From a virus (taxonomy: Duplodnaviria; Heunggongvirae; Uroviricota; Caudoviricetes), in IMG/VR virus record IMGVR_UViG_2785510761_000002: a DNA stretch of 64,000 nt. One strand, given 5' to 3'. This document shows, piece after piece, positions 7,721-54,859 of the stretch. The number at the start of each line of letters is the position of its first letter. Position 1 is the first letter of the stretch. The notes beneath the pieces are model-generated. The model saw only the letters and a list, made by a program, of their open reading frames with translations, did not search any database and had not been told where the DNA came from. A program made the translations under genes and the position numbers.

Positions 7721-8857
7721 CTACGCAGCCACCCGGTTCCCGCCGAGGTTCAGCAGTAGCGTTTGCACCTTGGAGCGGAACGCGTTGCGGCGGGCTCGTG
7801 GAATCTTGGGTGCTGCTGGGCAAGTGTGCTGAACGCCAGACCTGGTGACCCGGCGGCACTTCTGGCAGCGATCCACCTGGACACGTTCCGCCCGGTTCTT
7901 CACCAGCTCGTTGTACGCACGGCCAGGGGACCCAGAGCGCAGAATCTCCTCGTACACCTGACGCGGCACCTCGTACGAGTAGGTCCGGCTGCCCTTCATA
8001 GTGAGTGTCATGGTGTTCGTAGCCCGCTCGAACCCGACCCCCTTGATGAATGAGGGCACGGCCGGTGCCTGCATCTGAGCCCCAGCACGGGCCACGCGAT
8101 CGATCTGCAGTTGCTGAAGGGCGCTCTTGCCCTCGACCACCGTCACAGCTTCACCGCGTGCACGTGCTTCCTGGTTTGCGCGGCGAACATTGGCGAAGTG
8201 CAACTCTGCGTCCTTGAGCGCCAGCGACGGACGTCGTGCCTCGAGTACGCAGGCAACAGACTCTGCAGCGCGGTTCTTGGACACGTGATCAGGGAATCCG
8301 AGAGCCTGCACGTCCCATGCGCCGCCGGCCCCTTCGGTCACGCGAACGTACCCGGAGATCCGGCCGCCGCCGTGCTCCATCTCGATCGGCAGGTCAAACG
8401 TCTGTCGTTTGTTCTCCTTGGAGAATCGACGAATCGCTGTGGCGCTCGGCATGCGCAGGTTTACTCCTGCACCGTGGTAGTTCATACGGTGGGTTCGACG
8501 ATGGCCACTAAGGGCGTGCCCATCAGTCATGCCTGGAGTGTAATCGTCGGGCATGATCTTGTATGCGTGGTGCCCTTCGGGCTGCTGCTCCATCCGCTCA
8601 TAGTGCTGCTGCCACCACACATCGATTCCTTCGGTGAAGCTCGGGTTCGTCGCTGACTCCACTGTCGAGGCGTGCGCGTACCCGACGCGCTCAAGCTGCG
8701 CGATGATTGCCTTGCGCTGCTCGGCTGCGTCACCCATGCCTGCGTACACAGGGGGAGGGCCACCTGCGCTGCGGTTGTGGGAGGCGTAGCTTCCTCCGGA
8801 TCCACCCCGGGCAGTCTTCCCGAGTCCAAGGTCTGCGCGTCGCGTCTGGTTTGTCAT
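7721..8857 (-). CDS. leader-family protein 1: conserved N-terminal leader (MTNQTRRADLGLGKTARGGSGGSYASHNR..PPP) plus a unique C-terminal region with a C-terminal CxxC..C..P cluster
   Basis: Shares the roughly 40-aa N-terminal motif with 10 other ORFs in the window. Upstream motif GCCGCACGTAATCGTCGAC-ATG. Confidence 0.7.
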   Translation of the reverse strand: MTNQTRRADLGLGKTARGGSGGSYASHNRSAGGPPPVYAGMGDAAEQRKAIIAQLERVGYAHASTVESATNPSFTEGIDVWWQQHYERMEQQPEGHHAYKIMPDDYTPGMTDGHALSGHRRTHRMNYHGAGVNLRMPSATAIRRFSKENKRQTFDLPIEMEHGGGRISGYVRVTEGAGGAWDVQALGFPDHVSKNRAAESVACVLEARRPSLALKDAELHFANVRRANQEARARGEAVTVVEGKSALQQLQIDRVARAGAQMQAPAVPSFIKGVGFERATNTMTLTMKGSRTYSYEVPRQVYEEILRSGSPGRAYNELVKNRAERVQVDRCQKCRRVTRSGVQHTCPAAPKIPRARRNAFRSKVQTLLLNLGGNRVAA

Positions 8858-9029
8858 GTCGACGATTACGTGCGGCTGTTGGGTCAGCGGCGGTTCGGTG
8901 AAACTGCGCTATGCAGTGCAGTGTCGCCCCACGGTTGGCTCCGCTCGATATTCGAGGGCTCAACGAGCTCCAAAACCGACGCTCATACCTAGAGGGGGTA
9001 TGCAGGGTACCCCAGTGGGGTATATGTTG

Positions 9030-9330
9030 TCAGTTTTGCCCGGGTTTGGGCGTGTTTTGCCCGGGTTGCTCGCCCGCTTGCTCGGGCTACTTCCCTTACG
9101 GGAGTAAGGCTCTCCCGGTTTGCACGGTTTTTCTGGAAATCTGCCTCCCCTATAGACAGTGAGTAACTGTTTCACCGGTTTTGAGGTTCTGCATCTATCT
9201 ATCTATTTCTCTAATAAGAGATAAATAGATATAAACCCGAGTAAACCGGGAGAGCCCTACTCTCGTAAGGGATGCAGCCCGAGCACGAACCCGGTTTTGC
9301 CCGGGCAAGGCCGAGTAAAACCGGGCAAAC
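9030..9330. repeat. iteron-like direct and inverted repeats flanking an AT-rich core (candidate origin)
   Basis: The 13-mer TTTTGCCCGGGTT occurs three times direct and once inverted. A longer inverted pair, TTACGGGAGTAAGGCTCTCCCGGTTTGC / GTAAACCGGGAGAGCCCTACTCTCGTAAGG, brackets the AT-rich palindromic core TCTATCTATCTATTTCTCTAATAAGAGATAAATAGATATAAA. The region is non-coding in all six frames in a 70% GC context. Confidence 0.4.
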
Positions 9331-9977
9331 GGCGAAACCATGCCATTTTCGAGGCTCACACCCCGGTCGCCGGCCCGAGGAGGGTACTTGCGCGCAAACG
9401 GTGCTCCCGCAGCCGATCCCAAGCGCCTGCGTAGAGGCGCCCCGAAAACGGGTGCGGGGCCGGGAAACGAGCGTCCAGGGCCGTTTCCGGCCGCGTTCAA
9501 CCTCTATCGGCGCCCCGAGGACGCGCAGTGCTCCTGAAATCGGCTGAATCGTGGTCGTTATGCACGCGCGCCTACGCGCGTACGCGGGCGCGCGCCCGAC
9601 CGGGGGAAACACTCGCGATTGGACGAAAATCTGAAATGCAGTGTGCGCTCCGTCATGCTGTGAGTTGAGACGCTAGATACCTCGAAAGAGCCGCATACCC
9701 CCACCCCTCAGCAAAAAATGGTTGCTGCGACCTGTCACAGGTTTGTCACGGTAGGCTCAGTCGAGCGTTCCCTCGCCTACCGTGCGGTTTGAGCATTCAC
9801 CTTGCAGAGGATGGGCGCCTTCAATTCGCTTCACTGGTGCTGGCGATTACGCTGCGGCAGTAACAAGCATTCTCACACTGGCGGGTCGGCTTCTCGTCAG
9901 CCGGAGGCATTGATCCGTGTGATCCCGGCTTGCATGTCGTTGAGGGTAAACGAGGCGTGCCGCGCATAAGAGTGTGC

Positions 9978-10739
9978 ATGAAGTCTGCTTCCAAGCTTGG
10001 CGTCTCAGCAATCGTGCTCATCGTGCTGGCCGGATTCCTCATGGCCACGAACATGTGGGATCCGTCTGTCGTCTCATTCACGAGGCACGTGGTGGGCGAC
10101 AAAGCCGCGAGTGCTCTCGACACCACCGCCCGCGGCAGTGTCGATGCATCCAAAAAGTGGGTCGATGAAGCCAAGGATATGACCCTGGAGGATCTGGTTC
10201 AGAAGGCCCGGGAACTTCCTGCCCCAGAGATTCGGAGGATCCCAAAGTACGACCGCGAGGCGCAGTTCGGAACCTGGGTGAACAACGACCTCGGATGCAG
10301 CACCAGACAGATGATCCTCGCGCGGGATCTGGACAATGCTCAGCTCGACGAAGACGACTGCACTGTCCTCTCAGGAACGCTGACCACTGACCCGTATAGC
10401 GGGAAACAGATCGACTTCATCAGCGACCGCGCCGGCGGTGACTCACGAGCGGTGCAGACGGAAACGATCGTTCCGCCTTCCGTCGCTTGGAGGTCCGGAG
10501 CATCTACCTGGACTCAGGAGCAGCGCGCAGCGTTCATGAACGACCCGGACAACCTCATCTCCGTAGGTGAGAAGTCAAGGGCTGACAGGAGCGACAAAGC
10601 GCCGGATCGGTGGATGCCTGCGAACAAGAGCTATGGCTGTTCCTTCGCTGAGGCGTACACAAATGTCACGGTGAAGTACGGACTCTCGCTGGACACGAAG
10701 ACCAGGAACTTCCTCGTAGAGACGTTGGCGCAGTGCTAG
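9978..10739 (+). CDS. hypothetical secreted or membrane-anchored protein
   Basis: Start taken at the internal ATG (MKSASKLGVSAIVLIVLAGFLMATNMW) giving a signal/TM helix. GCCGCGCATAAGAGTGTGC-ATG start-associated motif upstream. Confidence 0.5.
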   Translation: MKSASKLGVSAIVLIVLAGFLMATNMWDPSVVSFTRHVVGDKAASALDTTARGSVDASKKWVDEAKDMTLEDLVQKARELPAPEIRRIPKYDREAQFGTWVNNDLGCSTRQMILARDLDNAQLDEDDCTVLSGTLTTDPYSGKQIDFISDRAGGDSRAVQTETIVPPSVAWRSGASTWTQEQRAAFMNDPDNLISVGEKSRADRSDKAPDRWMPANKSYGCSFAEAYTNVTVKYGLSLDTKTRNFLVETLAQC

Positions 10740-12814
10740 GCCTAGTCACCGGGACTGTTGATGACCCCGAAATCAGGATCTCATTCCCATATGACGCAAT
10801 CCACGCTCCATCGCGTTCGCCGCTGCGCGAGTACATCAAAGCCAAGTGTGATGCCCGATGGGACAAAGCAGCTGGTCAGTGGGTGATCACCGGGACACCA
10901 CGTCATCCTGATGAGTTCTTCGCAGGCTGTGGAATCACTCTTCACATCGACAGGGAAGCGTTCCCAGGTGTCACCAGTGCTGAAGAGCTACAGCGCCCGT
11001 TTGGAGTGCTCGCGCCCAACGGGCGGCAAGTGCAGGTGCACTCCCGCATGACGTCGCGCGCCGAGCTCCTACATCTGCTCGGCTACGCTGCCCAATGGGA
11101 TCGGGAGGCAAAAGTAAACGTGATCCCTGTGACTGACGTGTATCTCAATGGTCAACTGCGGCCTCAGGTTGAGTGGAGCGAAGAAGCCCAGTGGGCGGCG
11201 TACCGGGCGCTCACCGCGAAGGTAGCCGTTTCCGGGCTCGAAGAACAAGCCGAGGCCTGCGGCAGGGTTCCGAGCGTAGACGAATCGTTCAAATCCTGGT
11301 TCGAGAGCTCAGTGGCATCGATGCCGGAGTGGTGGGACTGGGACAGTCGGGAACCATTCCCTCACCAGTTCCCCGGCGCGTACAGTGCCGTACTCGGGCA
11401 CCGTCTCATTGCTGATGCGCCAGGCGTGGGGAAGACAAACACCGCCATCATGTGTGCCGGGCTCAAGCGATCCAAACGCATCCTTGTCGTCTGCCCTCCA
11501 AAACTATCCCTGAACTGGGGGCACGAGTTTGCCCAGGCGGGGTACCCGCATCAGATCCGCGTCTTTCGCGCTGGCCCACTCAGGAAGAAGGACAAGGAGC
11601 CGTTGCCGGACGAAGGAGTGGTGGTCGTTGGCGATTCGCTGCTGGCTTCTCGTGACGCGCTCCGAGATCAGTTGATCGAGTGGTGCCCGGACTTCTTTGT
11701 GGTGGATGAGATCCACCGACTGAAATCGTTGGCCTCCAAGCGCACGCAGGCAGTGCTCGATGTCGCACATCATGTCCCAGTCTCCGGGCGCTACGGCCTC
11801 ACCGGCACCCCGATCATCAGCGGCCCTCATGAACTCGTGCCGATCCTTGAGTTCACTGGACATCTGGGGCCGGTATTCGGCGGAGCGCACGCATTCCTGC
11901 ATCGCTTCTGCACCTACTTCGAGAAGTTCAAGTCTTTCGCGCCACGCAAGCACGCGCTGCCTGAGTTGCACGCGCTGCTCACCCGCCACATCTGGGTGCG
12001 CCGGCCGAAGTTCGAGGTTCTGAAGATGCTGAGCAAGCCGATCAGCTCAGCGATCGAACTGGACGTAGACGTGAGCGCCTACAAGGAGGCTCACCGTCAG
12101 GTCATCGAGAAGCTCGAAGAGTGGGTATCTACGTTCATTGGAGAGTGGGGTATTCCGCCCGATGAGGAAGCGATCGAGAGCTACCTTGAGCTGAACGCAG
12201 TCGGACATGTGAGTCATCTTCGGCTGGCATCAGCTGTTACGAAGCTGGAAACAGCCACAGAGCTGATCGCAGAGCATGTGGCATCTGACCCCGACAACGA
12301 GTCGCCTCTCATCGTGTGGGTGCACCACAAAGAGGTGCAGCTTGCGCTGGCTGAACAGCTCGAGTCTGAAGGGGTCGCCTATCGAATGGTCGTCGGTGGG
12401 CAGAGCCAGAAACAGTCACAGGAATCCGTTGACATGTATCAGGACGGGCAGGTGCAGGTACTCATCTGCTCGATCACCGCAGCGGGTGTGGGCCTCACAT
12501 TGACTCGAGGATGTGAAGCGCTGTTTGTGGAAACGGACTGGACTCCAGCAATCGTGTCCCAGGCCGTCGACCGGCAAAACCGAATCGGCCAGACCCGGGC
12601 TGTGATCACTCGCACACTCGTGGCGCTGGGAACGCTCGATGAGCACATCCAACGCATCCAACAGAAGAAGGGCGCTATCGCCGGGGTGGTGCACGGGGAC
12701 GACCTCTCAGACGTTGCTGTGCTGCACTCGCAAGACCTTGCCACGCCGCGTGAAATCATCCGCGGGCTGCTTGAACCGATCGTAAAGAAGATGCAGCCGA
12801 AGATCGCCGCGTAA
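10733..12814 (+). CDS. SNF2-family helicase
   Basis: Motif I LIADAPGVGKT, motif II DEIHRLK, motif III LTGTPI, motif V ICSITAAGVGLTLT, motif VI QAVDRQNRIGQTR. Confidence 0.8.
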   Translation: MLGLVTGTVDDPEIRISFPYDAIHAPSRSPLREYIKAKCDARWDKAAGQWVITGTPRHPDEFFAGCGITLHIDREAFPGVTSAEELQRPFGVLAPNGRQVQVHSRMTSRAELLHLLGYAAQWDREAKVNVIPVTDVYLNGQLRPQVEWSEEAQWAAYRALTAKVAVSGLEEQAEACGRVPSVDESFKSWFESSVASMPEWWDWDSREPFPHQFPGAYSAVLGHRLIADAPGVGKTNTAIMCAGLKRSKRILVVCPPKLSLNWGHEFAQAGYPHQIRVFRAGPLRKKDKEPLPDEGVVVVGDSLLASRDALRDQLIEWCPDFFVVDEIHRLKSLASKRTQAVLDVAHHVPVSGRYGLTGTPIISGPHELVPILEFTGHLGPVFGGAHAFLHRFCTYFEKFKSFAPRKHALPELHALLTRHIWVRRPKFEVLKMLSKPISSAIELDVDVSAYKEAHRQVIEKLEEWVSTFIGEWGIPPDEEAIESYLELNAVGHVSHLRLASAVTKLETATELIAEHVASDPDNESPLIVWVHHKEVQLALAEQLESEGVAYRMVVGGQSQKQSQESVDMYQDGQVQVLICSITAAGVGLTLTRGCEALFVETDWTPAIVSQAVDRQNRIGQTRAVITRTLVALGTLDEHIQRIQQKKGAIAGVVHGDDLSDVAVLHSQDLATPREIIRGLLEPIVKKMQPKIAA

Positions 12815-12845
12815 ATCCTGCCCGGACCCGTATGTGGCCGGGCAG

Positions 12846-12998
12846 GAGGCAATCATGAGTTGGCTGAAAGAAGCGTTCACCCCAGACCCTGATGAAGTTG
12901 ATCAAGTCACAGGCCTGTTCACGAGCAAGCGCGGGCTGATCGCGATCGGTGTGCTGCTCGTCGCGATTGTTGTCGGCAGCGTTCTGGCGTTCATCTGA
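12846..12998 (+). CDS. small membrane protein (50 aa)
   Basis: RBS GGAGG 7 nt upstream. Single TM helix (LIAIGVLLVAIVVGSVLAFI). Stop overlaps the start of the next gene (TGATG). Confidence 0.4.
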   Translation, partial: EAIMSWLKEAFTPDPDEVDQVTGLFTSKRGLIAIGVLLVAIVVGSVLAFI

Positions 12999-13621
12999 TG
13001 CGCGGGCAGGTGATCGGCACCGCTGGAGGCGGCCTAACCGGAGATGACTCGTGGGCAAACGCATCGCGCGGAGCTCAGGAGGCGGGCCGTGTAGCAGAGG
13101 TTCAGGTGGGCAACACCCTCTCACGGGTAGCCGAGCGTGGCCCTGCGGTGCTGCATGACCTTCGCATCCCCATTCCCGGTTTCACCGCGAACGTCGACCA
13201 CGTCATCGTGCATGGAAGCCGGGTCATCGTGATCGACTCGAAAGCGTGGGCCGCTGGTCGATATTGGACATTCAGGGGACGAACCCGCATCGGTTTTCGT
13301 CTGCTGGCGCCGAAGCGAGATTCAAAAGACGCGGTACGCACGCTTATTGGACAGCATGCACCTCACTGTGACAAGAAGACGATCCCCACCGCGGTATCCG
13401 CGATGAAACGGTACCTCGAGCAGCAGGGAATCGACGCACAGTTCGACCGCCCCATGCTGGCGATCTGGCAGGACCGGCAGACAAGTTTTGCGGGGTACAG
13501 GCCACAGGGTGACCCGGCTGTTGTCGTCGGGAAAAACCTGGGCAGGTGGATGCGGCGAAAAGTAAAGCCGCATCCCGCCGACCCGGCCATCATCCACGCA
13601 CTCGCACAGCTAGTGAACTAG
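12998..13621 (+). CDS. NERD-domain (nuclease-related) protein
   Basis: NERD-like core VLHDLRIPIPGF...NVDHVIVHGSRVIVIDSKAWAAGRYW. Confidence 0.6.
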   Translation: MRGQVIGTAGGGLTGDDSWANASRGAQEAGRVAEVQVGNTLSRVAERGPAVLHDLRIPIPGFTANVDHVIVHGSRVIVIDSKAWAAGRYWTFRGRTRIGFRLLAPKRDSKDAVRTLIGQHAPHCDKKTIPTAVSAMKRYLEQQGIDAQFDRPMLAIWQDRQTSFAGYRPQGDPAVVVGKNLGRWMRRKVKPHPADPAIIHALAQLVN

Positions 13622-13631
13622 GAGCAGCACC

Positions 13632-16600
13632 TTGGCAACGTCGAAGCAGATCGAGCAGCCGCCTCCCTACACCGTAATCACCTTGGTTGTGACCGTGGCG
13701 CTATGTGCTGTCGCCCTGTTCCTGCAGTGGCCGGCGGCCGTGATCGCGCTCGTGGGAATTCTGGTGGCAGCTTCTCTGAGTCGCAGCCCTCAGCTCACGG
13801 GGCCAAAAGACCCGCAGACCCAGTACCCGACAGTGGGGAATCCGGGGGAGCAGCAAGCACTGAACCGTCACCGATTCTGGCGCACAGTTCCTGGGAAGCT
13901 CCTATCCTGCGGTCCCTTCTGGCCGCTGACCACAAACATGCTGGCAGCAATTGGCGTTGGGTGCATCGCGTTCACTCTTCCGTACGAGGGCGCCGGAAAA
14001 CTCCTGCAGCTCATTGATGGTGTCGGAGCTCTGCCGTTTCTCCCATGGATCAACGGCGTCTTCTCCACTCTGCTCGTAGCTGGCTTCGGGGCAGCTCTGC
14101 GATCGAAGGATCCGGAGAACGGCCCAATGCCGCCCACTGACCTCGCAACGCTCTTAACGCAGTCAACATCGCGTGACCCAAAAACGTTTGCCCTGCTTGT
14201 GCTCGCCGTGAGCGGTGCACTGCTCACCGGGCTGGGGACCTCATGGTGGATCGCGGCGGCGGACTGGTACCTCATTTTCCCGGGAGGAGTCGCAGGTGCC
14301 GGGGCCGCCCTCATCGTGTTCGCACTTGTCACGCATGCGGCTACCGTCACGGAAACCCGGCGCCCATGGCTAGAAGCCTGCGAAGCTCGGGCCACATGGG
14401 CCGCACGATGGCCCTCGATGCCTAAGCTCAAGGAGTTCCCGCAGCTCACCAGTCACCGGAGGCTTGGAGCCAGCGATGAGGTGTGGATTGACGAGTTCCA
14501 GGCCCCAGCGATGCAGGGTGCGAAGTTCTGGATCGACAAGCCAGTTCCTGAGGGTATTGAACCGCTCATGCCTGCCAACACAATGGTGGCCTTCCTGTCC
14601 GTTCCTGACGTAGCCGGTGACGGCAACCCCATCACCTTGAGCAGAAGCGCAACGAAGTTCCGTGTCATCACCTGGAATGGCGATCATCCGCTCGACGTCA
14701 CCGACCCGAAGGTAGACCGTGAGCTCCTCAGCGTCTGGTTCGACCTGAAGGTGAGCGCAAGCTGTGCCGCGGCATGGGGGTCAATGTTCTCGCTCATTCC
14801 ACTGCACGCGCCAGAAGCACTGCACGTCGAGAAGGATGAGTGGATTGGCACCGAGACCGGTGCCTGGAAGATCGAGTACGGGGTGACCCAGGGAGTGAAC
14901 CTCCCCAGCTCAATGGCTGAGTGCGTGTCCAGCGCACAGCTTGCTTTGGGGCAGGAGATCGAAGTGCTGCCCATCGGCACATCCATGTTCATCGGCGCTA
15001 TCACCGCGGAAACCACCCAGCTCGAAGACGATTCGATTCTCGAGCAGCTTGCCTCAGAGCAGGAGATGCAGGCGTGGGAGAAGCGCTGGAAAGACATCAC
15101 CGGGCCAGGAATGCAGGCGCCGGCATACTTCCCCGAGCACGACGGTCAAGAGGAACTCGATTCGCGTACCGTGATATTCAGCCGTCTGTTCGGTGCTCCC
15201 GCAGGACTGTCAGCGAAGGACTACTTTGCGAAAGCCACCCCGGATCGCATCCAGAGCGGGCTGAAAGGCGCGTCCTGGTCCACAGCTTCGTTCTACGTGG
15301 ACCCGCACTCGAAGAAGCGTTACCCGCACCTCATGCAGATCATGTGGTCTGAGCAGCAGATCCCACTGAACCCTGCACGAATCGCACCGACAGATAGCGC
15401 TCGGGCTGCGACCTGGGCGATCACCGGAGCGATCAACGCTGCGTTCCTTGGAGCGAAAATGCAGCGCCCTGAGGTGATGAGCGTGAAGCCGCTCACCAGC
15501 CGGCAATCGCGTGGCCACATCTGGGAGGTAACACTTGCGCTCCTTGATGGAATGACGATGGCTGACGTTCGCAAGAACCAGCAGAAGCTCATGGCTGCCC
15601 TTGAAGGCTGCGAATGGTTGCGCGTCGGCGCCAGCACCCGTGGATGCCGGATCCTGTTCGGTGCGATGCCCTCATCTCGCCGCACTTGGGCGAACAAGGA
15701 CGCGGAAACCTCTGCGCGCAAGCTCGACTGGGAGCAGCATTTCATCGACTCGAAGATCAAGAACGCCCGCGAGGAGACGCCAGAGCTGCTAGACGTTGCT
15801 CCGCTTCCAAAGAACGACCTCGTGCGTGAGTACCGATTCAAGATGCCCGCCGGCCTGGCGATCGGCGACGTGAAGAAAGAGTCCGGGAAGCTCCAGAGCA
15901 CGACCGGGAACGGATTCCTCGATATCCGTCAGGGAGCAACGCCCGCGGAGATGATCATTCAGGCGGCAGAGGAAAGCCCCATGCCGAACCTTGCATTCTT
16001 CAACTGGGACGAAGTGGACGAAAGCAAAGCCGTGCCATTCGCCACCAACATTCAAGGTGAGCCGATGGCATGGGACCCGCTCACGGATCCGCACGTAGTC
16101 CTTCTGGGCGCCACCGGCTCGGGCAAGTCGGCCGCGATTCAGTCATTCCTTACCCCGGCTGCAATTCAAGGGTATGAACTGCACATTTTCGATAAGCCCA
16201 AGGGGGCTGCCGACTTCCAGTACCTGGTGCCGTTCTCCAAGCAGGTTGCGACCGAATACGTGACCATCGCCGCAGCGCTCGAGAACGTCTACAAGGAGGT
16301 TGAGCGCCGCAAGGAGTTGAACCAGCAGTATGGAGCTTCTCGCGTGCGAAACCTCCCCGACGAGGTGCGTCCTCCTCACATGATCGTGGTGATCGATGAG
16401 TTCACTTCCACCATCAAGCCAGAGCTGCTCGACAAAATCACGGGAGACGAGACCGAGGATCAGCTGCGAGAGCGCGAATTCAATGTGCGCACGAACCAGT
16501 ACAAGGGGCGGATCGGTGCGGCTGTTGGAAAGATCATGCGAGAGGCGCGCTCCGCGGGCGTTTCGATGCTCGTGGCCGGCCAGACACTCTCAGCCGACGA

Positions 16601-17372: not shown

Positions 17373-17375
17373 TGG

Positions 17376-17385
17376 CCGCGCATTC
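17376..17385 (+). promoter_or_regulatory. CCGCGCATTC motif instance upstream of the 17409 gene
   Basis: One of more than 20 intergenic copies of the motif, oriented toward the downstream gene. Confidence 0.4.
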
Positions 17386-17408
17386 CCGTGATGAGAAGAG
17401 GAGGGTGA

Positions 17409-17828: not shown

Positions 17829-17863
17829 CCGGCCCGTATGTGAGAGTTCGGGAAGGAATCTCG

Positions 17864-19312: not shown

Positions 19313-19481
19313 GACCGGCCCTCGTATCGAGGATTCGGACACGCGGGCGCGGCTTCGTCTCAACCGCATTCAGTCACCTCATGGCGTGTGCGCCAGTTCT
19401 TCAAATCTTCTTCTGTGTACTGGTTCGGGTCCCCTAGGAGCCCCCGGCTGCAGTACACGCACTTGATCAGCATTCGGTTCG

Positions 19482-28083: not shown

Positions 28084-28199
28084 CTGAATGATTACGCGCG
28101 GCATCGGGTGGAGATGTTGGACCCCCGCCGTGGACGGCTGCTGCAGGCTGCCGTAGGACGTTGTACACACGTCACTTAGGGATTCGAACCCCAGTCCAG

Positions 28200-29907: not shown

Positions 29908-30193
29908 AGATGCTCTTTCGAGCCGTTCGCATACTGAATGCGCGGTGTTTGGCGGGAAGGTTATCCGCCGAAAAGAGAATAAGCCCGGGACCGAATTTCG
30001 GTGCGCGGGCTTCGAGAGAAGATTGGGCCTAGATCGAGGCCGGTTTACCCGCAGGTGGAGGCGAATACAGATTATGGGTATGCGAGAGCCACTGCTGTGT
30101 GCTCAAACTGCGTCCCATGATTGTCTCCTGCTATTCGGATGTACCAACACTACACTTCACATCGAAAATAATTCAAGTTTTCATGTTGTTTCG

Positions 30194-30374: not shown

Positions 30375-30995
30375 CTAGTAATGCGCGGCATCGCCGTATC
30401 TGGTCTGATCCACGAGCTTTTGCACCTTGAACACATGCGGCACATCGTGGAATCGCACCCCGGCGGTTTGCTCGCCAATGTTCCCTTTGTTCCAAGCGCC
30501 ATGGGTTTGGGGCTGCATGCCGGCGGCTGCATCGTGGAAAACCAGCGTTCCGCATCCAAAGAGTCGATCAATGATTCCCCGCTCGACGGCGACGCTCACA
30601 ATCCGGTCGACGGGGATCTCCCTGCTGTGCTTGTACAGTACGCCCCAGCGACGGGTGACGCGTCTGCTGGTGACCGTGAACGTTGAGTGAGTCCAACGCA
30701 TCACAGGCACGACGACGTACCAGATTTCCAGCATCAGCACGATGCTGTGCACGGCCAACTGCCCCCAGGCGTCGACCCAGGTGACTCCTGTGCTCGAAGG
30801 CCAGAACATAGCCAGCGCTACGTGCACGGCGATCAGCACGAGCTGTACGAGCGCTGGCCCAGCTAGGATCTTCCAGTGCGTCCGGCCTGACCACAGCACA
30901 GTTTCAGCACCTGGCGGTACAACACGTGACGATATCGACTGGCTTGGTGATGGCTGCTGCGGTGTCTGCCCTGTAGGCATGGCGGCGAACGACAT
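30375..30995 (-). CDS. membrane protein with bacterial PH (bPH_2/YdbS-like) domain
   Basis: Two TM helices followed by ...IPVDRIVSVAVERGIIDRLFGCGTLVFHD, a bPH_2 signature. Confidence 0.55.
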   Translation of the reverse strand: MSFAAMPTGQTPQQPSPSQSISSRVVPPGAETVLWSGRTHWKILAGPALVQLVLIAVHVALAMFWPSSTGVTWVDAWGQLAVHSIVLMLEIWYVVVPVMRWTHSTFTVTSRRVTRRWGVLYKHSREIPVDRIVSVAVERGIIDRLFGCGTLVFHDAAAGMQPQTHGAWNKGNIGEQTAGVRFHDVPHVFKVQKLVDQTRYGDAAHY

Positions 30996-32144: not shown

Positions 32145-32173
32145 ACGCAGATTACGAGCGGCAAGTTCCTGAT

Positions 32174-33217: not shown

Positions 33218-33473
33218 ACGCAGATTACGAGCGGCTTCCAAGAGGCCACTCATGCCCAAGTGACACGCCCGGGATGCCGCTGGGAAGGAGGTTCTGCGGA
33301 AGCAATTCACTCGAAAAGAGCATAAGGTGCCATGGCTCCACCTGAGATGAACTCCCAGTTCAGCTGAGAAAAGGTGTGACGCCATCAAGAATTGAGGAGC
33401 CAGCAAGTGCCCCAAAAACCTGCCATGGTGGTGTTCACCGCGGGGCTGGCTTGCGGCGATAAGGAGGAGATCA

Positions 33474-34889: not shown

Positions 34890-34951
34890 GATGGAGATTA
34901 CTTGCGGCGCAAAGGCTCGCATGGTCTGAAGCGCGAGCGCGGTTCAGCACG

Positions 34952-35155: not shown

Positions 35156-35428
35156 GTCTGTAGCCCCCTTCGGACTGGTCAGCTGTTTCTGCCTGTATGC
35201 GCGGCTACTGAGTCATCCTTGACAGCAGACGTTCACCGGGTACCGCGCATCCCGCGATCTTGCGGCCACTGGTGCTCCAATCACCGCCAAGCTGATCAAG
35301 ACCGCGGCGCCAATCTCGTCCAATCGGTTCCGCGTCACCGAGATGTTCGCAGTGCTCGTCGTGCACGACCACCAACCCGGTTTCCGCCGGAGATCTTTCG
35401 AGATCGACAGCGAAGGTGAGCATGACCG

Positions 35429-36454: not shown

Positions 36455-36651
36455 CGAACTCTCTTTCTGTGTATGTCCCGCGCACGGGGAACGTGCCATG
36501 GGAATGCGCGGGGGTGCCGGGCGACGGCCACCCCACTCATTACGAGCGGGGGTTGAGACGTGAGTTCAACCAGGTCAATACAGCCCACGAGCGCACCGGC
36601 TCAGGGAGGTGCAAAACCCAAAAACTAGCCCCACCGCGCATTCAGGGGCTA

Positions 36652-41180: not shown

Positions 41181-41181
41181 G

Positions 41182-41191
41182 CCGCGCATTC
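41182..41191 (+). promoter_or_regulatory. CCGCGCATTC motif instance upstream of the 41238 gene
   Basis: Intergenic, about 50 nt upstream of the ATG. A second copy, GCCGCGCATAC, sits upstream of the 41575 gene. Confidence 0.4.
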
Positions 41192-41237
41192 AACGATCAA
41201 GTCGGGAAACGCCTGGCTGAGATAGCGGAGTCATCCA

Positions 41238-41519: not shown

Positions 41520-41574
41520 GCCGCGCATACGTACACCTGACCCCGGAACGGCCGGGATAGCAGGAGGGTAGAAA

Positions 41575-43962: not shown

Positions 43963-43998
43963 CTTCCCGTGGCCTACATGTCAGAGCCATCGTCAGGT

Positions 43999-44008
43999 GA
44001 ATGCGCGG
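43999..44008 (-). promoter_or_regulatory. CCGCGCATTC motif instance upstream of the exonuclease gene
   Basis: About 36 nt upstream of the ATG at 43962. Confidence 0.4.
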
Positions 44009-44261
44009 CAACAACATTCCCGGTACTGAGAGGTGGGCTTCCGTCCATGGAGGCCACCTAAGGGAAGTGGATGGTTTCACTTAGTCCGATGCGATCTGGT
44101 TGAAGGACAAGCCGCCCCGCGCGTCCCGAGAAACGTCCCAGATGGCGATGTTGTAGCCAGCGTGAGTCAACCAGACCGCGACGGAGTGAAGTGAAGTCGA
44201 GCCACAGGGATCCGAGGCTCAATCCCGGATGTACATGCCATCGATCCCTGGTGACGCTCGG

Positions 44262-44495: not shown

Positions 44496-44551
44496 GATGC
44501 TCCTGTTCCGGGCAGCACCATGCTGCCCGGAACAAAATGCGCGGCATAGAT

Positions 44552-46039: not shown

Positions 46040-46069
46040 AATGAGCTCCTTTGAGTCGATGTGTCTTTG

Positions 46070-46079
46070 GAATGCGCGG
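46070..46079 (-). promoter_or_regulatory. CCGCGCATTC motif instance
   Basis: About 28 nt upstream of the 46039 start. Confidence 0.4.
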
Positions 46080-46139
46080 CTCAGCGCAAAAACAACGGCC
46101 GCTCAACCCGTGAAGTTGAGCGGCCGTTGTTTTTGAGGA

Positions 46140-48093: not shown

Positions 48094-48281
48094 ACCGACA
48101 ACGTGAAGCTCATCGTCCTTCGAGGCGCAGGTTGGGGTGGACTTGGGTCCTCGAATGGCGGAGTATCTCAAGAAAATCTCGAAAAACATGTACGAGCCGA
48201 TGAGTACGCAAATGAGCGAAATGTACACGAAAATGAGAAGGTGAAAAGCATCAGTCATGCCTTTGTGAATGCGCGGCGCCG

Positions 48282-49571: not shown

Positions 49572-49631
49572 GCGTTGATTACTGACGGCAGCGCGCGCTC
49601 GGTCGCACTTGGTGCCCTTAAGCGGCAGAGC

Positions 49632-50549: not shown

Positions 50550-50556
50550 GGCGGTA

Positions 50557-51033
50557 TTACGAGCGGCTGAGCGGGACTACGAAGATCATTTCGCCGTCAG
50601 GATCCTCTGTCTCTACGGACGCTGAGGTCTCAGTGAAGTTCATGTGGTTGACGAGCGCTCTCATCTCCTGCTCGTCATTGTTGGTGATCTGCATCTCATT
50701 CCCGAACTCATCGCGAACCGAGTAGAAGACAAGCTGCGAGCTGTCTTCTGGGGCGTAGTCCAGTGTCACCGCAGACACCTCCTCATCCGGGAAGAGTCCA
50801 CCAGTTCCGGCAATCAGGGTGTCGTTGATCGCCTGAAGGTGCTGCGCTGAATCCACACCATCTCGTGAAGCTGTCTCATGCAGCTGAACAAGGTGACCGT
50901 CCACCGTAAGGATGCCGGTAGCCCGGGGCGGAACATCAGCTGTATCACGTTCATGCGCAGCAAAACTGCCGCCGCTGCCGCCTGCAGCTGTCCTCCCGAG
51001 ACCTTGATCTTGCCTGCGCACATTGTTGCTCAT
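50557..51033 (-). CDS. leader-family protein 8 (MSNNVRRQDQGLGRTAAGGSGGSFAAHERDTADVPP...)
   Basis: Start moved to the internal ATG preceded by GCCGCCCGTAATACTGTGC. Confidence 0.7.
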   Translation of the reverse strand: MSNNVRRQDQGLGRTAAGGSGGSFAAHERDTADVPPRATGILTVDGHLVQLHETASRDGVDSAQHLQAINDTLIAGTGGLFPDEEVSAVTLDYAPEDSSQLVFYSVRDEFGNEMQITNNDEQEMRALVNHMNFTETSASVETEDPDGEMIFVVPLSRS

Positions 51034-51090
51034 GCACAGTATTACGGGCGGCACCGCCATGTAGCTGCCGCCCGTCACTGCGCCAATGGC

Positions 51091-51903: not shown

Positions 51904-51958
51904 GCAGTTATTACGGGCGGCACAGCGCCCCGCCATGCCGCGCGTGTTCACCAACGCA

Positions 51959-53368: not shown

Positions 53369-53387
53369 ACAGCTGATTACGAGCGGC

Positions 53388-53738: not shown

Positions 53739-53770
53739 CGTTCCTTCTTCTGAGCCAGGTGGCCAGACGG

Positions 53771-53986
53771 CTACTGGTTCGAGAGCGCGTACAGACGTTT
53801 GGACATCACGATCATCTCCCGCGCCTCTTTGCCACGCCCGCGCGAATCCAGCAGCTTCACTCCGTCCGCATTCAGCCTCTCAGCTTCGGACTTCATCGCT
53901 TCCTTTTGGAGATCGGTCAGCTCGCTCGGGTCGATCTTGGTGAGCGACTCGATATACCTCGACGTGATTGTGACCCGACGTGTCAT
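53771..53986 (-). CDS. hypothetical small protein
   Basis: 71 aa. CCGCGCATTCATAGGGC-ATG start-proximal motif. Confidence 0.4.
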   Translation of the reverse strand: MTRRVTITSRYIESLTKIDPSELTDLQKEAMKSEAERLNADGVKLLDSRGRGKEAREMIVMSKRLYALSNQ

Positions 53987-54102
53987 GCCCTATGAATGCG
54001 CGGTCATGTTGAAAATCGGGCAAAAATGAGCTCCGAAGTCGTGAAGTGATGTGCCTCTGAGTGAGCCTGTGTATTGAATGTCATTGGTCTTGCCTAAAGT
54101 GA

Positions 54103-54633
54103 GTGCTGGGACGTTACCTGAGGAAAGGGAAGAATGAGATGGACGGCAATAGTGCTGCGGATTTAGTCGCGGCTGAAACCCCGGAGGGTCTTGGTGAGCG
54201 CGGTGAGCGGATTGATGCAGCTCGCGAGCTTGACCTCGTTGTCTCTGCGTTCGGAGACAAACGCCCGTGGACATTAGACGGCTTCGTGGAGGGCATCCCA
54301 TGGCCTGCAGAGCATGCCTCCCTGTTTGAAGCGGCTTCGTTACTTCGCGATGACGATGAGATCGGTTTTGACACCCCGATGATCAACCTGGAGCATGCAG
54401 GACATCTCGGAGATGCCACCGACCGGCTCGACTCCATTCGCGGAGCGTGGGAGGCCGAGGGGCGCACCGTGTTCCAGATGAAGGAGTCGCCAGACGGCGG
54501 GCAGGTTGCGTACATTTGGTCATATGGCCATGGACTGAAGACAGAAGTCTCTGCGCATGCCTCAGACGATGAGACGCTCTTCAGAGTGGAGATCACCGTG
54601 ACGGCCCCGCCTCCGGGGGTAGGCCGCATGTAA
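54103..54633 (+). CDS. hypothetical protein
   Basis: 176-aa ORF; alternative start MDGNSAADL. Confidence 0.45.
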   Translation: MLGRYLRKGKNEMDGNSAADLVAAETPEGLGERGERIDAARELDLVVSAFGDKRPWTLDGFVEGIPWPAEHASLFEAASLLRDDDEIGFDTPMINLEHAGHLGDATDRLDSIRGAWEAEGRTVFQMKESPDGGQVAYIWSYGHGLKTEVSAHASDDETLFRVEITVTAPPPGVGRM

Positions 54634-54640
54634 TGCAGGC

Positions 54641-54859
54641 ATGAAGACCAGCACGCGACGGGGCGATCTCGGCCTCGGCAAGACCGCACGCGGTGGAAAC
54701 AACGGAAGCTATGTAGTCCACGAAAGGCAGGACGGCGCGCCTCCGCCCCTATCGCAAAGATCGCTTGATCGCGGGTTTGACACGCTCGACGAGAAACTTG
54801 CTGCAATGACGCAGGAAGTCTCAGAGGCGGTAGAGCGGCTGCAGGGCGACGACGAGTGA
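54641..54859 (+). CDS. leader-only minigene of the leader family (MKTSTRRGDLGLGKTARGGNNGSYVVHERQDGAPPP plus a 35-aa tail)
   Basis: Only plus-strand family member. Preceded by GCCGCATGTAATGCAGGC-ATG. Immediately upstream of the ArdC-like gene. Confidence 0.55.
   Translation: MKTSTRRGDLGLGKTARGGNNGSYVVHERQDGAPPPLSQRSLDRGFDTLDEKLAAMTQEVSEAVERLQGDDE

What the first reader, a model, noticed from the sequence alone, without database searches (positions are those of the whole stretch)
7721..54660. Conserved start-associated DNA motif GCCGCnCGTAAT-N6-8-ATG upstream of every leader-family gene
All 11 family genes are preceded by the same short element, GCCGC-(n)-C/A-G/A-GTAAT-C/A, 6-8 nt before the start codon (ATG, or GTG at 28083). 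They typically sit within about 20 nt of the upstream stop and have no Shine-Dalgarno. A related variant, GCCGCGCATA(A/G)AG-ATG, precedes the genes at 9978, 23746 and 53986.

The TAATCT-like hexamer 4-7 nt from the ATG suggests leaderless transcription from a -10 element. Alternatively it is a dedicated translation-initiation or regulatory RNA signal specific to this element. Mycobacteriophage start-associated sequences are a comparable phenomenon.
Basis: seen in the sequence. Interest (0 to 1): 0.7.

Follow-up and report, generated by a model that had tools for sequence, protein, structure and literature searches.

The report
Plasmid-wide promoter motif giving leaderless genes
The short DNA word in front of the 11 "leader-family" genes is real. 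It is one variant of a promoter-like element used all over this conjugative megaplasmid-like element and its relatives, and it most likely makes transcripts start at the start codon, so these genes need no ribosome-binding site.

Summary
GCCG[C/T]-N-[C/A/T]-GTAAT occurs 11 times in the window against 0.12 expected. Each copy ends 6-7 nt before the ATG/GTG of a leader-family gene, and none of those genes has a Shine-Dalgarno sequence.

The motif is not specific to that family. It is a sub-class of a window-wide block, (G/A)CCGCGCAT(T/A)NN, with 24 copies against 1.6 expected. The combined set is 38 sites. 35 of them lie in the 13.5% of the window without annotated genes. The sites scored against gene calls all point at a downstream gene.

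The block sits in one of two positions:
- 6-7 nt before the start of genes without a Shine-Dalgarno sequence (15 genes, 4 of them non-family);
- 22-113 nt upstream of genes that have one, and of four tRNA genes.

A motif in front of tRNA genes cannot be a translation signal. At the distant sites, the position where the start codon would fall shows a pyrimidine-purine signature typical of transcription start sites.

Related Micrococcales megaplasmids (Glaciihabitans, Arthrobacter, Pseudarthrobacter) carry the same CCGC-anchored block at the same distance from ATG.

Best reading: a non-canonical promoter element in the -10 / extended -10 position that places the transcription start on the start codon, giving leaderless mRNA. 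The factor that recognises it is unknown, and no transcription start has been mapped.

The parts
8865..8876 (-). Class-2 (family-type) block GCCGCACGTAAT, 7 nt before the ATG at 8857 (leader-family gene with a KTSC domain)
28091..28102 (-). Class-2 block GCCGCGCGTAAT, 7 nt before the GTG at 28083 (leader-family gene)
32151..32162 (-). Class-2 block GCCGCTCGTAAT, 6 nt before the ATG at 32144 (leader-family gene)
33224..33235 (-). Class-2 block GCCGCTCGTAAT, 6 nt before the ATG at 33217 (leader-family gene; a recent duplicate of the 5' end of the 32144 gene)
34897..34908 (-). Class-2 block GCCGCAAGTAAT, 7 nt before the ATG at 34889 (leader-family gene)
49578..49589 (-). Class-2 block GCCGTCAGTAAT, 6 nt before the ATG at 49571 (leader-family gene with DUF7007)
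50556..50567 (-). Class-2 block GCCGCTCGTAAT, 6 nt before the ATG at 50549 (leader-family gene). Its TAA is also the stop codon of the upstream family gene.
51041..51052 (-). Class-2 block GCCGCCCGTAAT, 7 nt before the ATG at 51033 (leader-family gene)
51910..51921 (-). Class-2 block GCCGCCCGTAAT, 6 nt before the ATG at 51903 (leader-family gene)
53376..53387 (-). Class-2 block GCCGCTCGTAAT, 7 nt before the ATG at 53368 (leader-family gene)
54623..54634 (+). Class-2 block GCCGCATGTAAT, 6 nt before the ATG at 54641 (leader-family gene, truncated copy)
36539..36550 (-). Class-2-like block CCCGCTCGTAAT in a divergent intergenic region, not next to a family gene. It aligns with a class-1 block (ACCGCGCATTAC) at the matching position of relative L002.
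9959..9970 (+). Class-1 block GCCGCGCATAAG, 7 nt before the ATG at 9978 (non-family gene, no Shine-Dalgarno sequence)
36633..36644 (+). Class-1 block ACCGCGCATTCA, 7 nt before the ATG at 36652 (N6/N4 DNA methyltransferase, no Shine-Dalgarno sequence). It is a fully conserved island in the alignment with L002.
48266..48277 (-). Class-1 block GCCGCGCATTCA, 7 nt before the ATG at 48258 (dCTP deaminase/dUTPase-like gene, no Shine-Dalgarno sequence)
53993..54004 (-). Class-1 block ACCGCGCATTCA, 6 nt before the ATG at 53986 (71-aa gene, no Shine-Dalgarno sequence)
22884..22895 (-). Class-1 block ACCGCGCATTGA, 33 nt upstream of tRNA-Asp (22850)
24083..24094 (-). Class-1 block CCCGCGCATTGA, 31 nt upstream of tRNA-Met (24051)
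29935..29946 (-). Class-1 block ACCGCGCATTCA, 27 nt upstream of tRNA-Trp (29907)
30378..30389 (-). Class-1 block GCCGCGCATTAC, 113 nt upstream of tRNA-Gln (30264), the first tRNA of the array
7700..7711 (-). Class-1 block GCCGCGCATTAG, 72 nt upstream of the SSB gene (start 7627, which has a Shine-Dalgarno sequence)
17375..17386 (+). Class-1 block GCCGCGCATTCC, 22 nt upstream of the gene starting at 17409, which has a Shine-Dalgarno sequence
20684..20695 (-). Class-1 block GCCGCGCATTCA, 42 nt upstream of the gene starting at 20641, which has a Shine-Dalgarno sequence
23748..23759 (-). Class-1 block GCCGCGCATAGA, 43 nt upstream of the gene starting at 23704, which has a Shine-Dalgarno sequence.
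35194..35205 (-). Class-1 block GCCGCGCATACA, 38 nt upstream of the gene starting at 35155, which has a Shine-Dalgarno sequence
36501..36512 (-). Class-1 block CCCGCGCATTCC, 46 nt upstream of the gene starting at 36454; sits in the divergent intergenic region
41181..41192 (+). Class-1 block GCCGCGCATTCA, 45 nt upstream of the gene starting at 41238, which has a Shine-Dalgarno sequence
41520..41531 (+). Class-1 block GCCGCGCATACG, upstream of an unannotated small TTG-start gene that has an AGGAGG Shine-Dalgarno sequence (homologue called in L003)
43998..44009 (-). Class-1 block GCCGCGCATTCA, 41 nt upstream of the RNase T-like gene (start 43956, which has a Shine-Dalgarno sequence)
44534..44545 (-). 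Class-1 block GCCGCGCATTTT, 38 nt upstream of the gene starting at 44495, which has a Shine-Dalgarno sequence
46069..46080 (-). Class-1 block GCCGCGCATTCC, 29 nt upstream of the gene starting at 46039 (TTG), which has a Shine-Dalgarno sequence
58199..58210 (-). Class-1 block ACCGCGCATTCA, 30 nt upstream of the gene starting at 58168, which has a Shine-Dalgarno sequence
59860..59871 (-). Class-1 block GCCGCGCATTCT, 41 nt upstream of the DprA-like gene (start 59818, which has a Shine-Dalgarno sequence)
60651..60662 (-). Class-1 block CCCGCGCATTGA, 36 nt upstream of the GmrSD_N gene (start 60614, which has a Shine-Dalgarno sequence)
62572..62583 (-). Class-1 block ACCGCGCATTCA, directly abutting a strong terminator-like hairpin (62572-62541) and 112 nt upstream of the LRR gene (start 62459)
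62965..62976 (-). Class-1 block ACCGCGCATTCC, 40 nt upstream of the gene starting at 62924, which has a Shine-Dalgarno sequence

Best explanation
The 12-nt block is a core promoter element of the backbone of a conjugative megaplasmid-like element in Leucobacter luti. It occupies the -10 / extended -10 position: the CCGC anchor at about -17..-14 and C-R-T-W-N-N at -12..-7. It fixes the transcription start about 7 nt downstream of the block.

Where a gene's ATG/GTG sits exactly at that point, the mRNA is leaderless. It is then translated without a Shine-Dalgarno sequence, which is a normal route in Actinobacteria. This applies to all 11 leader-family genes and at least 4 unrelated genes. Where the block lies further upstream, the transcript has an ordinary 5' UTR with a Shine-Dalgarno sequence, or is a tRNA precursor.

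The family version (GCCGC-N-CGTAAT) and the general version (GCCGCGCATTCA) are two sequence classes of one element. The separate class probably gives the leader-family genes a common expression level or timing.

Shown here: the existence, boundaries, distribution, orientation and spacing of the motif; the anticorrelation with Shine-Dalgarno sequences; and conservation in relatives. Inferred: that it is a promoter, that transcripts start on the A/G of the start codon, and that the two classes are regulated differently. Unknown: which sigma factor or other protein reads it.
For: 1. Enrichment. The family class has 11 copies against 0.12 expected. The general class CCGCGCATW has 24 against 1.64. 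A position weight matrix (PWM) scan gives 36 sites at 12 bits or more against 3.2 expected.

2. Location. 35 of 38 sites lie in the 13.5% of the window that is unannotated, and the scored sites point at a downstream gene. 24 of 39 CDS with an upstream gap of 40 nt or more have a site within 130 nt, against 2 of 18 with a gap under 15 nt.

3. Spacing falls into two groups. In one, the block ends 6-7 nt before the start: 15 CDS, none with a Shine-Dalgarno sequence, 14 ATG and 1 GTG. In the other, it ends 22-113 nt upstream, before genes that have a Shine-Dalgarno sequence. 38 of the 52 remaining CDS have one.

4. Four sites precede tRNA genes, by 27-113 nt. This rules out a translation role as the general function.

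5. At the 21 sites not adjacent to a start, position +6 after the hexamer is a pyrimidine in 15 of 21 and position +7 is a purine in 18 of 21. This is the pyrimidine(-1)/purine(+1) start-site signature, and it falls at the offset where the A of ATG sits in the start-adjacent sites.

6. Divergent intergenic regions carry one block per direction: 36454/36652, and 8857/9978.

7. No canonical sigma-70-type promoter was found in 44-64 kb, against 3.3 expected. Something else must drive these genes.

8. Selection acts on the block itself. Pairwise identity is 0.87 in the motif, 0.43 at four-fold sites of the leader and 0.28 upstream. The block is a conserved island in an otherwise diverged intergenic alignment with L002.

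9. Relatives.
- Family genes on Logan contigs L002-L007 and the Leucobacter MAG (metagenome-assembled genome) contig L001 keep GCCG[CT]N[CAT][GA]TA.. 6-7 nt before ATG. The one exception is a GTG that overlaps the upstream stop codon, so that gene is translationally coupled.
- The Glaciihabitans plasmid has GCCGCGCATG-N8-ATG and GCCGCACACGTAG-N6-ATG.
- The Arthrobacter plasmid and pACHL01 have CCGCACACAT-N7-ATG, and also variable-distance copies before genes with a Shine-Dalgarno sequence.
- CCGC sits at about -17..-14 in all of them.

10. In the complete Glaciihabitans plasmid, all 13 GCCGCGCATG copies lie in the backbone (0-30 and 93-149 kb). None lie in the 32-92 kb accessory, IS and metabolic segment.

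11. Background from the literature. In mycobacteria the -10 box alone dominates promoter recognition, no -35 consensus is found, purines start 85% of transcripts, and leaderless mRNAs are abundant (PMC3898074).
Against: - No transcription start site, RNA-seq or reporter data exist for this element. The promoter function and the exact +1 are inferences.
- The block is not a canonical actinobacterial sigma-A box (TANNNT). The family class has G at the position that would be -11, and the general class CATTCA lacks T at -12 and -7. A recogniser has to be postulated.
- phmmer with RpoD region 2, RpoD region 4 and RpoE found no sigma-70-like ORF in the window, the complete Glaciihabitans plasmid or the other loci.
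- Tandem family genes each carry a block with no terminator between them. An RNA-processing site would also fit that arrangement.
- The host chromosome could not be scanned. 'Plasmid-specific' rests on the single backbone-versus-accessory contrast in one relative.
Confidence: 0.66

Rival explanations
1. The block is mainly the operator of a plasmid-encoded global regulator, either a repressor or an activator. It overlaps weak host-type promoters, as proposed for the 34-bp motif of the Bifidobacterium megaplasmid pMP7017 and as known for KorA operators of IncP plasmids. The core promoter itself would be degenerate and read by host sigma-A. The leaderless geometry would still hold, but the conserved bases would serve regulator binding.
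For: - The block lacks a canonical -10 box, yet is more conserved than any ordinary promoter.
- It is confined to the plasmid backbone in the Glaciihabitans relative.
- No sigma-like ORF was found on the plasmids.
- An actinobacterial megaplasmid precedent exists: a plasmid-family-specific motif overlapping the -10 box of 19 promoters (PMC10832533).
- The consensus varies between lineages while the position stays fixed. This is what co-evolution with a plasmid-encoded DNA-binding protein would produce.
Against: - The block is asymmetric and single-copy per site, with no dyad or direct repeat. That is unusual for operators.
- No residual TANNNT or -35 signal is seen beside it.
- The fixed 6-7 nt distance to the start codon and the pyrimidine/purine signal at +6/+7 tie the block itself to start-site placement.
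- The two readings are not mutually exclusive.
Confidence: 0.2
2. The block acts at the RNA level. One version is a site for an endoribonuclease that cuts polycistronic transcripts a few nucleotides upstream of the start codon, creating leaderless or short-leader mRNAs and pre-tRNA ends. The other version is a translation-initiation signal independent of Shine-Dalgarno pairing, like the start-associated sequences of cluster K mycobacteriophages.
For: - Five family genes lie in tandem with blocks between them and no predicted terminators.
- The motif is strand-specific and lies just upstream of start codons that lack a Shine-Dalgarno sequence.
- RNAalifold can pair CCGC.CGU with the GCGGCGG that encodes the Gly-Gly-Ser stretch of the leader.
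Against: - 21 of 38 copies are 22 nt or more from any start codon, and four precede tRNA genes. A translation signal cannot be the general role.
- The block contains no Shine-Dalgarno core, unlike the start-associated sequence GGGATAGGAGCCC.
- The predicted pairing has no covariation (1 of 13 pairs), and its partner is absent at non-family sites.
- Blocks in divergent intergenic regions would need further, unseen promoters upstream.
- The block has no hairpin and is not A/U-rich, unlike typical RNase III and RNase E sites.
Confidence: 0.1
3. The motif has no function of its own. It is a remnant of the duplicated 5' end of the family genes and is carried along with the leader-coding sequence.
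For: Two of the eleven copies (32144 and 33217) are recent duplicates, identical from -13 to about +90.
Against: - Sequence identity collapses immediately upstream of the block and in the spacer.
- Synonymous sites of the leader are close to saturated (0.43) while the block stays at 0.87.
- The same block precedes unrelated genes and tRNA genes.
- It is conserved in distant plasmids.
Confidence: 0.01

Closest known systems
Leaderless-mRNA promoters of Actinobacteria (sigma-A TANNNT -10 box 7-12 bp upstream of a transcription start that coincides with the start codon; Cortes et al. 2013, PMC3898074)
   Same: There is no Shine-Dalgarno sequence. A conserved block ends 6-7 nt before an ATG/GTG. 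There is no -35 consensus. The inferred +1 is a purine and -1 is a pyrimidine. The host phylum translates leaderless mRNAs efficiently.
   Different: The conserved bases are not TANNNT. The strongest conservation is CCGC at about -17..-14 plus C-R-T at -12..-10. The family class has G at the position of the key -11 A. The motif seems confined to a plasmid backbone rather than used genome-wide.
The 34-bp plasmid-specific motif overlapping the -10 box of 19 promoters of Bifidobacterium breve megaplasmid pMP7017 (PMC10832533)
   Same: The host element is an actinobacterial conjugative megaplasmid that carries tRNA genes and a tmRNA. A conserved motif specific to the plasmid family sits on the -10 region of many promoters and controls a large share of the plasmid genes. 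The pMP7017 FtsK/SpoIIIE protein is a distant relative of the one in this window.
   Different: The pMP7017 motif is 34 bp, A+T-rich, contains a canonical TATACT box and is followed by 5' UTRs with ribosome-binding sites. The motif here is 12 nt, has a G+C-rich 5' half, has no canonical box, and in 15 cases sits directly on a start codon.
Start-associated sequences (SAS) of cluster K mycobacteriophages (Pope et al. 2011, PMC3203893)
   Same: It is a short, asymmetric repeat in a single orientation. It lies a few nucleotides upstream of many start codons of a mobile element, those starts are mostly ATG, and it is absent from the host genome.
   Different: SAS (GGGATAGGAGCCC) contains the AGGAG Shine-Dalgarno core and occupies the ribosome-binding-site position, 3-7 bp from the start. 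It is found essentially only next to start codons. The block here has no Shine-Dalgarno core, replaces rather than contains the ribosome-binding site, and also occurs far upstream of genes that have a Shine-Dalgarno sequence and of tRNA genes.
Promoters that use only a -10-region element and are read by dedicated factors, for example T4 late promoters TATAAATA read by gp55 (from my own knowledge)
   Same: One short contiguous element at the -10 region, with no -35 box, defines a whole regulon of a mobile element.
   Different: The sequence is different. No gp55-like or sigma-like gene was identified here. T4 late transcripts are not leaderless.
Stoperators of cluster A mycobacteriophages (13-bp asymmetric repressor sites; mentioned in PMC3203893, otherwise from my own knowledge)
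   Same: There are many copies of an asymmetric site of about 13 bp, in short intergenic regions, all oriented with transcription.
   Different: Stoperators have no fixed spacing to start codons and act by blocking elongation when a repressor is bound. Here the spacing to the start codon, or to a pyrimidine/purine dinucleotide, is fixed.

Membership tests
Actinobacterial sigma-A leaderless promoter | No Shine-Dalgarno sequence between the promoter and the start codon | tested here: met
   None of the 15 genes with a start-adjacent block has a GGAG/GAGG/AGGA/AAGG tetramer at -17..-4, against 38 of 52 other CDS.
Actinobacterial sigma-A leaderless promoter | A -10 hexamer of the form TANNNT, centred 7-12 bp upstream of the transcription start (PMC3898074) | tested here: not met
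   In the register that ends 6-7 nt before the ATG, the hexamer is CGTAAT or CATTCA. In the alternative register, TAATNN, only 3 of 11 copies end in T, and the hexamer would end just 4-5 nt before the ATG.
Actinobacterial sigma-A leaderless promoter | The primary transcript 5' end coincides with the A/G of the start codon | not testable with these tools
   This needs dRNA-seq or 5' RACE. The only indirect support is the pyrimidine/purine signal at +6/+7 of the 21 distant sites.
Cluster K mycobacteriophage start-associated sequence (SAS) | The repeat contains the AGGAG Shine-Dalgarno core and occupies the ribosome-binding-site position | tested here: not met
   No Shine-Dalgarno core occurs in GCCGCNCGTAAT or GCCGCGCATTCA.
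Cluster K mycobacteriophage start-associated sequence (SAS) | Virtually all copies lie within a few bp of a start codon | tested here: not met
   Under the regex, 17 of 38 copies have ATG/GTG at 6-7 nt; 15 of those match annotated CDS starts. The other 21 copies lie 22 nt or more away, including four before tRNA genes.
Plasmid-specific motif overlapping the -10 box (pMP7017 type) | Present at many promoters of the plasmid family and absent from host-type DNA | tested here: inconclusive
   Many copies occur in four plasmid lineages. All 13 Glaciihabitans copies are in the backbone and none in the 60-kb accessory segment. No host chromosome could be scanned.
Plasmid-specific motif overlapping the -10 box (pMP7017 type) | The motif embeds a canonical -10 hexamer (TATACT) | tested here: not met
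   The block contains no TATAAT-like or TANNNT hexamer.
Sigma-28 / FliA / WhiG-type promoter (-35 TAAA, -10 GCCGATAA; recalled from my own knowledge) | A contiguous GCCGATAA -10 element with a TAAA -35 element about 15 nt upstream | tested here: not met
   GCCG and (G/A)TAA are both present but are separated by 3 extra nt. No upstream TAAA or any other conserved -35 column was found.
ECF sigma promoter (-35 GGAAC-like, -10 CGT; recalled from my own knowledge) | A conserved -35 element 16-18 nt upstream of a CGT-containing -10 element | tested here: not met
   CGT is present only in the family class. No conserved column occurs upstream of the block. phmmer with RpoE found no ECF-like ORF on the plasmids.

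The most novel reading that the evidence does not exclude
A widespread family of conjugative megaplasmids of Micrococcales (Leucobacter, Glaciihabitans, Arthrobacter, Pseudarthrobacter) may run its backbone genes from its own non-canonical promoter grammar. That grammar is a CCGC anchor at -17..-14 plus C-R-T, with no -35 box. It would be read by a plasmid-encoded factor that has no detectable similarity to sigma-70 proteins, making plasmid transcription largely autonomous of the host.

Within that grammar, a distinct sub-class would drive, as leaderless mRNAs, a polymorphic set of proteins that share a short N-terminal leader. Those proteins would be candidates for transfer into the recipient cell, or for secretion, during conjugation.
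Probability: 0.2. Interest if true: 0.8.

Novelty: new variant of a known kind. Interest (0 to 1): 0.55.

Why it matters
If the reading is right, the transcription units of a large and almost uncharacterised family of actinobacterial megaplasmids can be read directly from sequence, through a 12-nt word. These plasmids carry tRNA arrays, a tmRNA, RNA-repair genes, methyltransferases and T4SS/T7SS-like genes.

The motif corrects gene starts. At least two NCBI starts in this window are probably wrong. It also defines which genes are leaderless.

It singles out a co-regulated set of 'leader + variable cargo' proteins, which are good candidates for effectors delivered during conjugation.

It poses a concrete and testable question: which protein reads a promoter whose key bases lie at the extended -10 position and which lacks the canonical -11 A and -7 T? 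Pseudarthrobacter chlorophenolicus A6, with plasmid pACHL01, is a cultured strain in which this could be tested.

Tried and rejected
1. Phage origin. tRNA hits to large actinophages and a 'phage tail lysozyme' domain suggested a jumbo phage. I rejected this. No relative of the family was found in 2.9 million viral contigs. The neighbours are SSB, a VirB4-like ATPase, an FtsK/SpoIIIE protein and a cell-wall hydrolase. The closest FtsK relatives are all on Micrococcales megaplasmids, and phages gave only weak Bacillus hits.

2. The TAA inside GTAAT as the stop codon of the upstream gene (termination-reinitiation). This is true for only 1 of 11 copies, and relatives carry CATATT and CATACC, which have no TAA.

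3. An RNA hairpin between the motif and the Gly-Gly-Ser codons. RNAalifold proposes it, but without covariation, and the partner sequence is absent at non-family sites.

4. An Rfam match. Only tRNAs and the tmRNA were found.

5. A -35 element or other upstream signal. None was found among 11 or 38 aligned sites.

6. A sigma factor on the element. phmmer with RpoD region 2, RpoD region 4 and RpoE against all ORFs of 70 aa or more found nothing at E <= 10. The search covered the window, the complete Glaciihabitans plasmid and six other loci. This is a low-sensitivity test, and the other 99 kb of the L. luti contig could not be read.

7. tblastn of the 37-aa leader against plasmids gave no match, probably because of low-complexity masking.

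8. Literature searches on Leucobacter plasmids and on leaderless promoters of conjugative plasmids gave nothing relevant. The paper on polyvalent proteins does not mention these leaders.

9. My first pattern had one base too many and found nothing. It was corrected.

Full report

My first pattern had one base too many and found nothing. The corrected pattern gives 11 exact matches against 0.12 expected, and none of 100 shuffles reached 11.

All 11 matches lie directly upstream of the 11 genes that share the N-terminal leader MSNITRRQDxGLGKTAAGGSGGSFASHER..PP. The gene starts are 8857-, 28083- (GTG), 32144-, 33217-, 34889-, 49571-, 50549-, 51033-, 51903-, 53368- and 54641+. The last T of TAAT is 6 or 7 nt from the start codon in every case.

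Anchored on the motif, information content is high over exactly 12 columns and at background level upstream and in the spacer.

After removing the one recent duplicate pair, pairwise identities are as follows:

| Region | Pairwise identity |
|---|---|
| 12 motif columns | 0.87 |
| 20 nt upstream of the motif | 0.28 |
| Four-fold degenerate sites of invariant leader residues | 0.43 |

The block is therefore conserved for its own sake, not as a passenger of gene duplication.

**2. What the element is**

The window is positions 99,153-163,152 of a 163,250-bp contig of Leucobacter luti (SNYA01000009.1). It carries:
- 22 tRNA genes and a tmRNA;
- a 1246-aa FtsK/SpoIIIE protein, an SNF2 helicase and several DNA methyltransferases;
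- a Ro/TROVE protein, SSB and DprA;
- an 827-aa lysozyme + M23 cell-wall hydrolase;
- a VirB4-like AAA_10 ATPase at the left edge of the window, cut by its start.

The FtsK protein's best relatives are all on megaplasmids of Micrococcales: Pseudarthrobacter pACHL01, Arthrobacter, Paenarthrobacter, Glaciihabitans and Curtobacterium. Phages give only weak Bacillus hits. The leader family has no relative in 2.9 million viral contigs.

I conclude that this is a conjugative megaplasmid-like element, not a phage.

**3. The motif is not private to the family**

Listing everything that shares the CCGC..C-R-T core revealed a second, more abundant class, (G/A/C)CCGCGCAT(T/A)NN. It has 24 copies against 1.64 expected.

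A weight matrix built from both classes finds 36 sites at 12 bits or more, against 3.2 expected. Of the 38 strict sites, 35 lie in the 13.5% of the window that has no annotated feature. In the weight-matrix scan against the gene calls, the sites have a co-oriented gene downstream.

The distance from the end of the block to the downstream feature falls into two groups:

| Group | Distance | Downstream features |
|---|---|---|
| Start-adjacent | 6-7 nt | 15 CDS: the 11 family genes plus 9978, 36652, 48258 and 53986. None has a Shine-Dalgarno tetramer. |
| Distant | 22-113 nt | CDS with clear Shine-Dalgarno sequences, and the tRNA-Asp, tRNA-Met, tRNA-Trp and tRNA-Gln genes. |

Among the 52 remaining CDS, 38 have a Shine-Dalgarno tetramer.

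Of CDS with an upstream gap of 40 nt or more, 24 of 39 have a block within 130 nt. Of CDS with a gap under 15 nt, only 2 of 18 do.

A motif found in front of tRNA genes, and tens of nucleotides upstream of ordinary ribosome-binding sites, cannot be a translation-initiation signal. Its distribution is that of a promoter.

**4. Evidence that the start site lies about 7 nt downstream**

In the 21 sites not adjacent to a start codon, position +6 after the block is a pyrimidine in 15 of 21 and position +7 is a purine in 18 of 21. This is the usual -1/+1 signature of bacterial transcription starts; 85% of starts are purines in M. tuberculosis (PMC3898074). It falls at exactly the offset where the A (or G) of the start codon sits in the start-adjacent sites.

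Divergent intergenic regions have one block per direction. In the alignment of the 36454/36652 region with the diverged relative L002, the block ACCGCGCATTCA is an 11-column island of identity.

The simple sigma-70 scan finds no canonical promoter in 44-64 kb, against 3.3 expected.

Together these points support a -10-region promoter element whose spacing puts +1 on the start codon. For 15 genes that gives leaderless mRNAs. I could not test the start site directly.

**5. The two classes are one kind of element**

They share GCCGC-N-C-R-T. Relatives show intermediates:
- Family genes carry CATAAT (L002, L004, L007), CATATT and CATATA (L006), and CATACC (L001).
- The window's only class-2 block not next to a family gene (CCCGCTCGTAAT, 36539-36550) aligns with a class-1 block (ACCGCGCATTAC) at the matching position of L002.
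- The single family gene without a block (L002 10001) starts with a GTG that overlaps the upstream stop codon, so it is translationally coupled.

**6. Conservation beyond Leucobacter**

- *Glaciihabitans plasmid NZ_CP043654, complete.* It has GCCGCGCATG followed by 8 nt and ATG in front of many genes without a Shine-Dalgarno sequence, and at variable distance from others. It also has a second class, GCCGCACACGTAG followed by about 6 nt and ATG. That class precedes seven genes that share a different N-terminal leader, MTTFxxLxHPRxxGxFxDKxQSAPE.
- *Backbone versus accessory DNA.* All 13 GCCGCGCATG copies of that plasmid lie in the backbone (0-30 and 93-149 kb). None lie in the 60-kb accessory, IS and metabolic segment. 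This argues against a general host promoter.
- *Arthrobacter plasmid NZ_CP104273 and pACHL01.* Both have (G/T)CCGCACACAT followed by 7 nt and ATG on many genes, and the same word further upstream of genes that have a Shine-Dalgarno sequence. They carry yet other leader families, RQPxGxPxGGQFA and HPRGAAGRF.

In all four lineages CCGC sits at about -17..-14 relative to the ATG. The grammar is therefore old and shared, while the 3' half drifts between lineages.

**7. What reads it?**

This is unknown. The block is not TANNNT in any register. It has no -35 partner. It resembles the sigma-28 -10 element (GCCGATAA) and ECF -10 elements (CGT) only loosely.

phmmer with RpoD and RpoE segments found no sigma-like ORF in the window, the complete Glaciihabitans plasmid or the other loci. 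That test has low sensitivity.

The candidates are a host alternative sigma factor, a divergent plasmid factor, or a plasmid regulator acting on weak host promoters. The last option is the main rival. It has a precedent in the 34-bp motif overlapping the -10 box of the Bifidobacterium megaplasmid pMP7017 (PMC10832533).

**8. Rivals**

- *RNA processing site.* It cannot be excluded from sequence alone. It is less parsimonious because it requires further unseen promoters, including in divergent regions, and the block is neither a hairpin nor A/U-rich.
- *Translation signal of the start-associated-sequence type.* Rejected: the block has no Shine-Dalgarno core, and most copies are not at start codons.
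- *mRNA hairpin with the Gly-Gly-Ser codons.* There is no covariation.
- *Duplication remnant.* Rejected.
- *The TAA as an upstream stop codon.* True for 1 of 11 copies.

**9. Verdict**

Its register and its 'family-specific' scope were wrong, and the comparison with start-associated sequences does not hold.

It is a new variant of a known kind: a non-canonical, apparently plasmid-backbone-specific promoter word. It is of moderate interest in itself. Interest would be higher if a dedicated recognition factor, and an effector regulon tied to the leader families, are confirmed.

Noticed in passing
window 22410-30264 (- strand); 20713-22284: An array of 22 tRNA genes and a tmRNA (tag ASYKQRDLTLAA) lies next to a Ro/TROVE gene. 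Related contigs add a T4-type RNA ligase and a PNKP-like HAD phosphatase, so the element carries an RNA-repair and translation-support module. Only about four of the tRNAs have a promoter block upstream, which suggests a few multi-tRNA transcription units.
   Followed up: partly
window family genes; L012 (Glaciihabitans) 5590-20000; L015 27015-32018; L016 26512-39889: Each related megaplasmid has its own family of proteins with a short, conserved N-terminal leader and unrelated C-terminal parts. The leaders are MSNITRRQDxGLGKTAAGGSGGSFASHER (window), MTTFxxLxHPRxxGxFxDKxQSAPE (Glaciihabitans), and RQPxGxPxGGQFAxxxHSE plus HPRGAAGRF (Arthrobacter, pACHL01). They share a G-x-F-A/x...E core. The cargo domains are mostly unknown (KTSC, DUF7007, DUF2958). 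They could carry a signal for transfer or secretion.
   Followed up: partly
window 54641-54859 and 54965-55720 (+): The family gene at 54641 is only 72 aa here. Its homologues are 359 aa in L003 and L005. The L. luti copy appears disrupted and is annotated as two CDS.
   Followed up: no
window 33253, 34922, 22841-22951 (- strand): The public annotation starts two family genes 36 and 33 nt too far upstream (33253 and 34922). The motif and the leader alignment indicate 33217 and 34889. The annotation also calls a 36-aa CDS that overlaps tRNA-Asp.
   Followed up: partly
window 62541-62583 (- strand): The strongest terminator-like hairpin in 44-64 kb (14 pairs followed by TTTTTT) starts at the last base of a promoter block. 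Transcripts arriving from upstream would terminate there. Transcripts starting about 7 nt after the block would begin inside the 5' arm of the hairpin and could read through into the LRR gene. Alternatively, it marks a very short RNA.
   Followed up: no
L004 1289-8332: A related contig carries an EssC-like FtsK/SpoIIIE ATPase with FHA domains (1521 aa), a WXG100 protein and DUF6317 next to two leader-family genes. This is a T7SS-like module on the same kind of element.
   Followed up: no
L015 14700-14743 and 18810-18856; L016 14400-14451 and 18860-18911: A third motif variant, CTACGCATGT(C/T)C followed by 6 nt and ATG, precedes the T4SS coupling-protein gene and a small neighbouring gene. It occurs in both the Arthrobacter plasmid and pACHL01.
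   Followed up: no
window 50557-50567 (- strand): The stop codon TAA of the family gene 51033-50557 is the TAA inside the GTAAT of the next gene's motif. The two genes are packed with no spare intergenic base.
   Followed up: yes
window 36469-40243 (+): Three DNA methyltransferase genes lie in a row: an N6/N4 type, a Dam-like type and a 625-aa C5 type. The first is a leaderless-type gene directly behind a class-1 block. The general block contains GCGC/CCGCGC, so methylation of the promoter word itself is conceivable.
   Followed up: no
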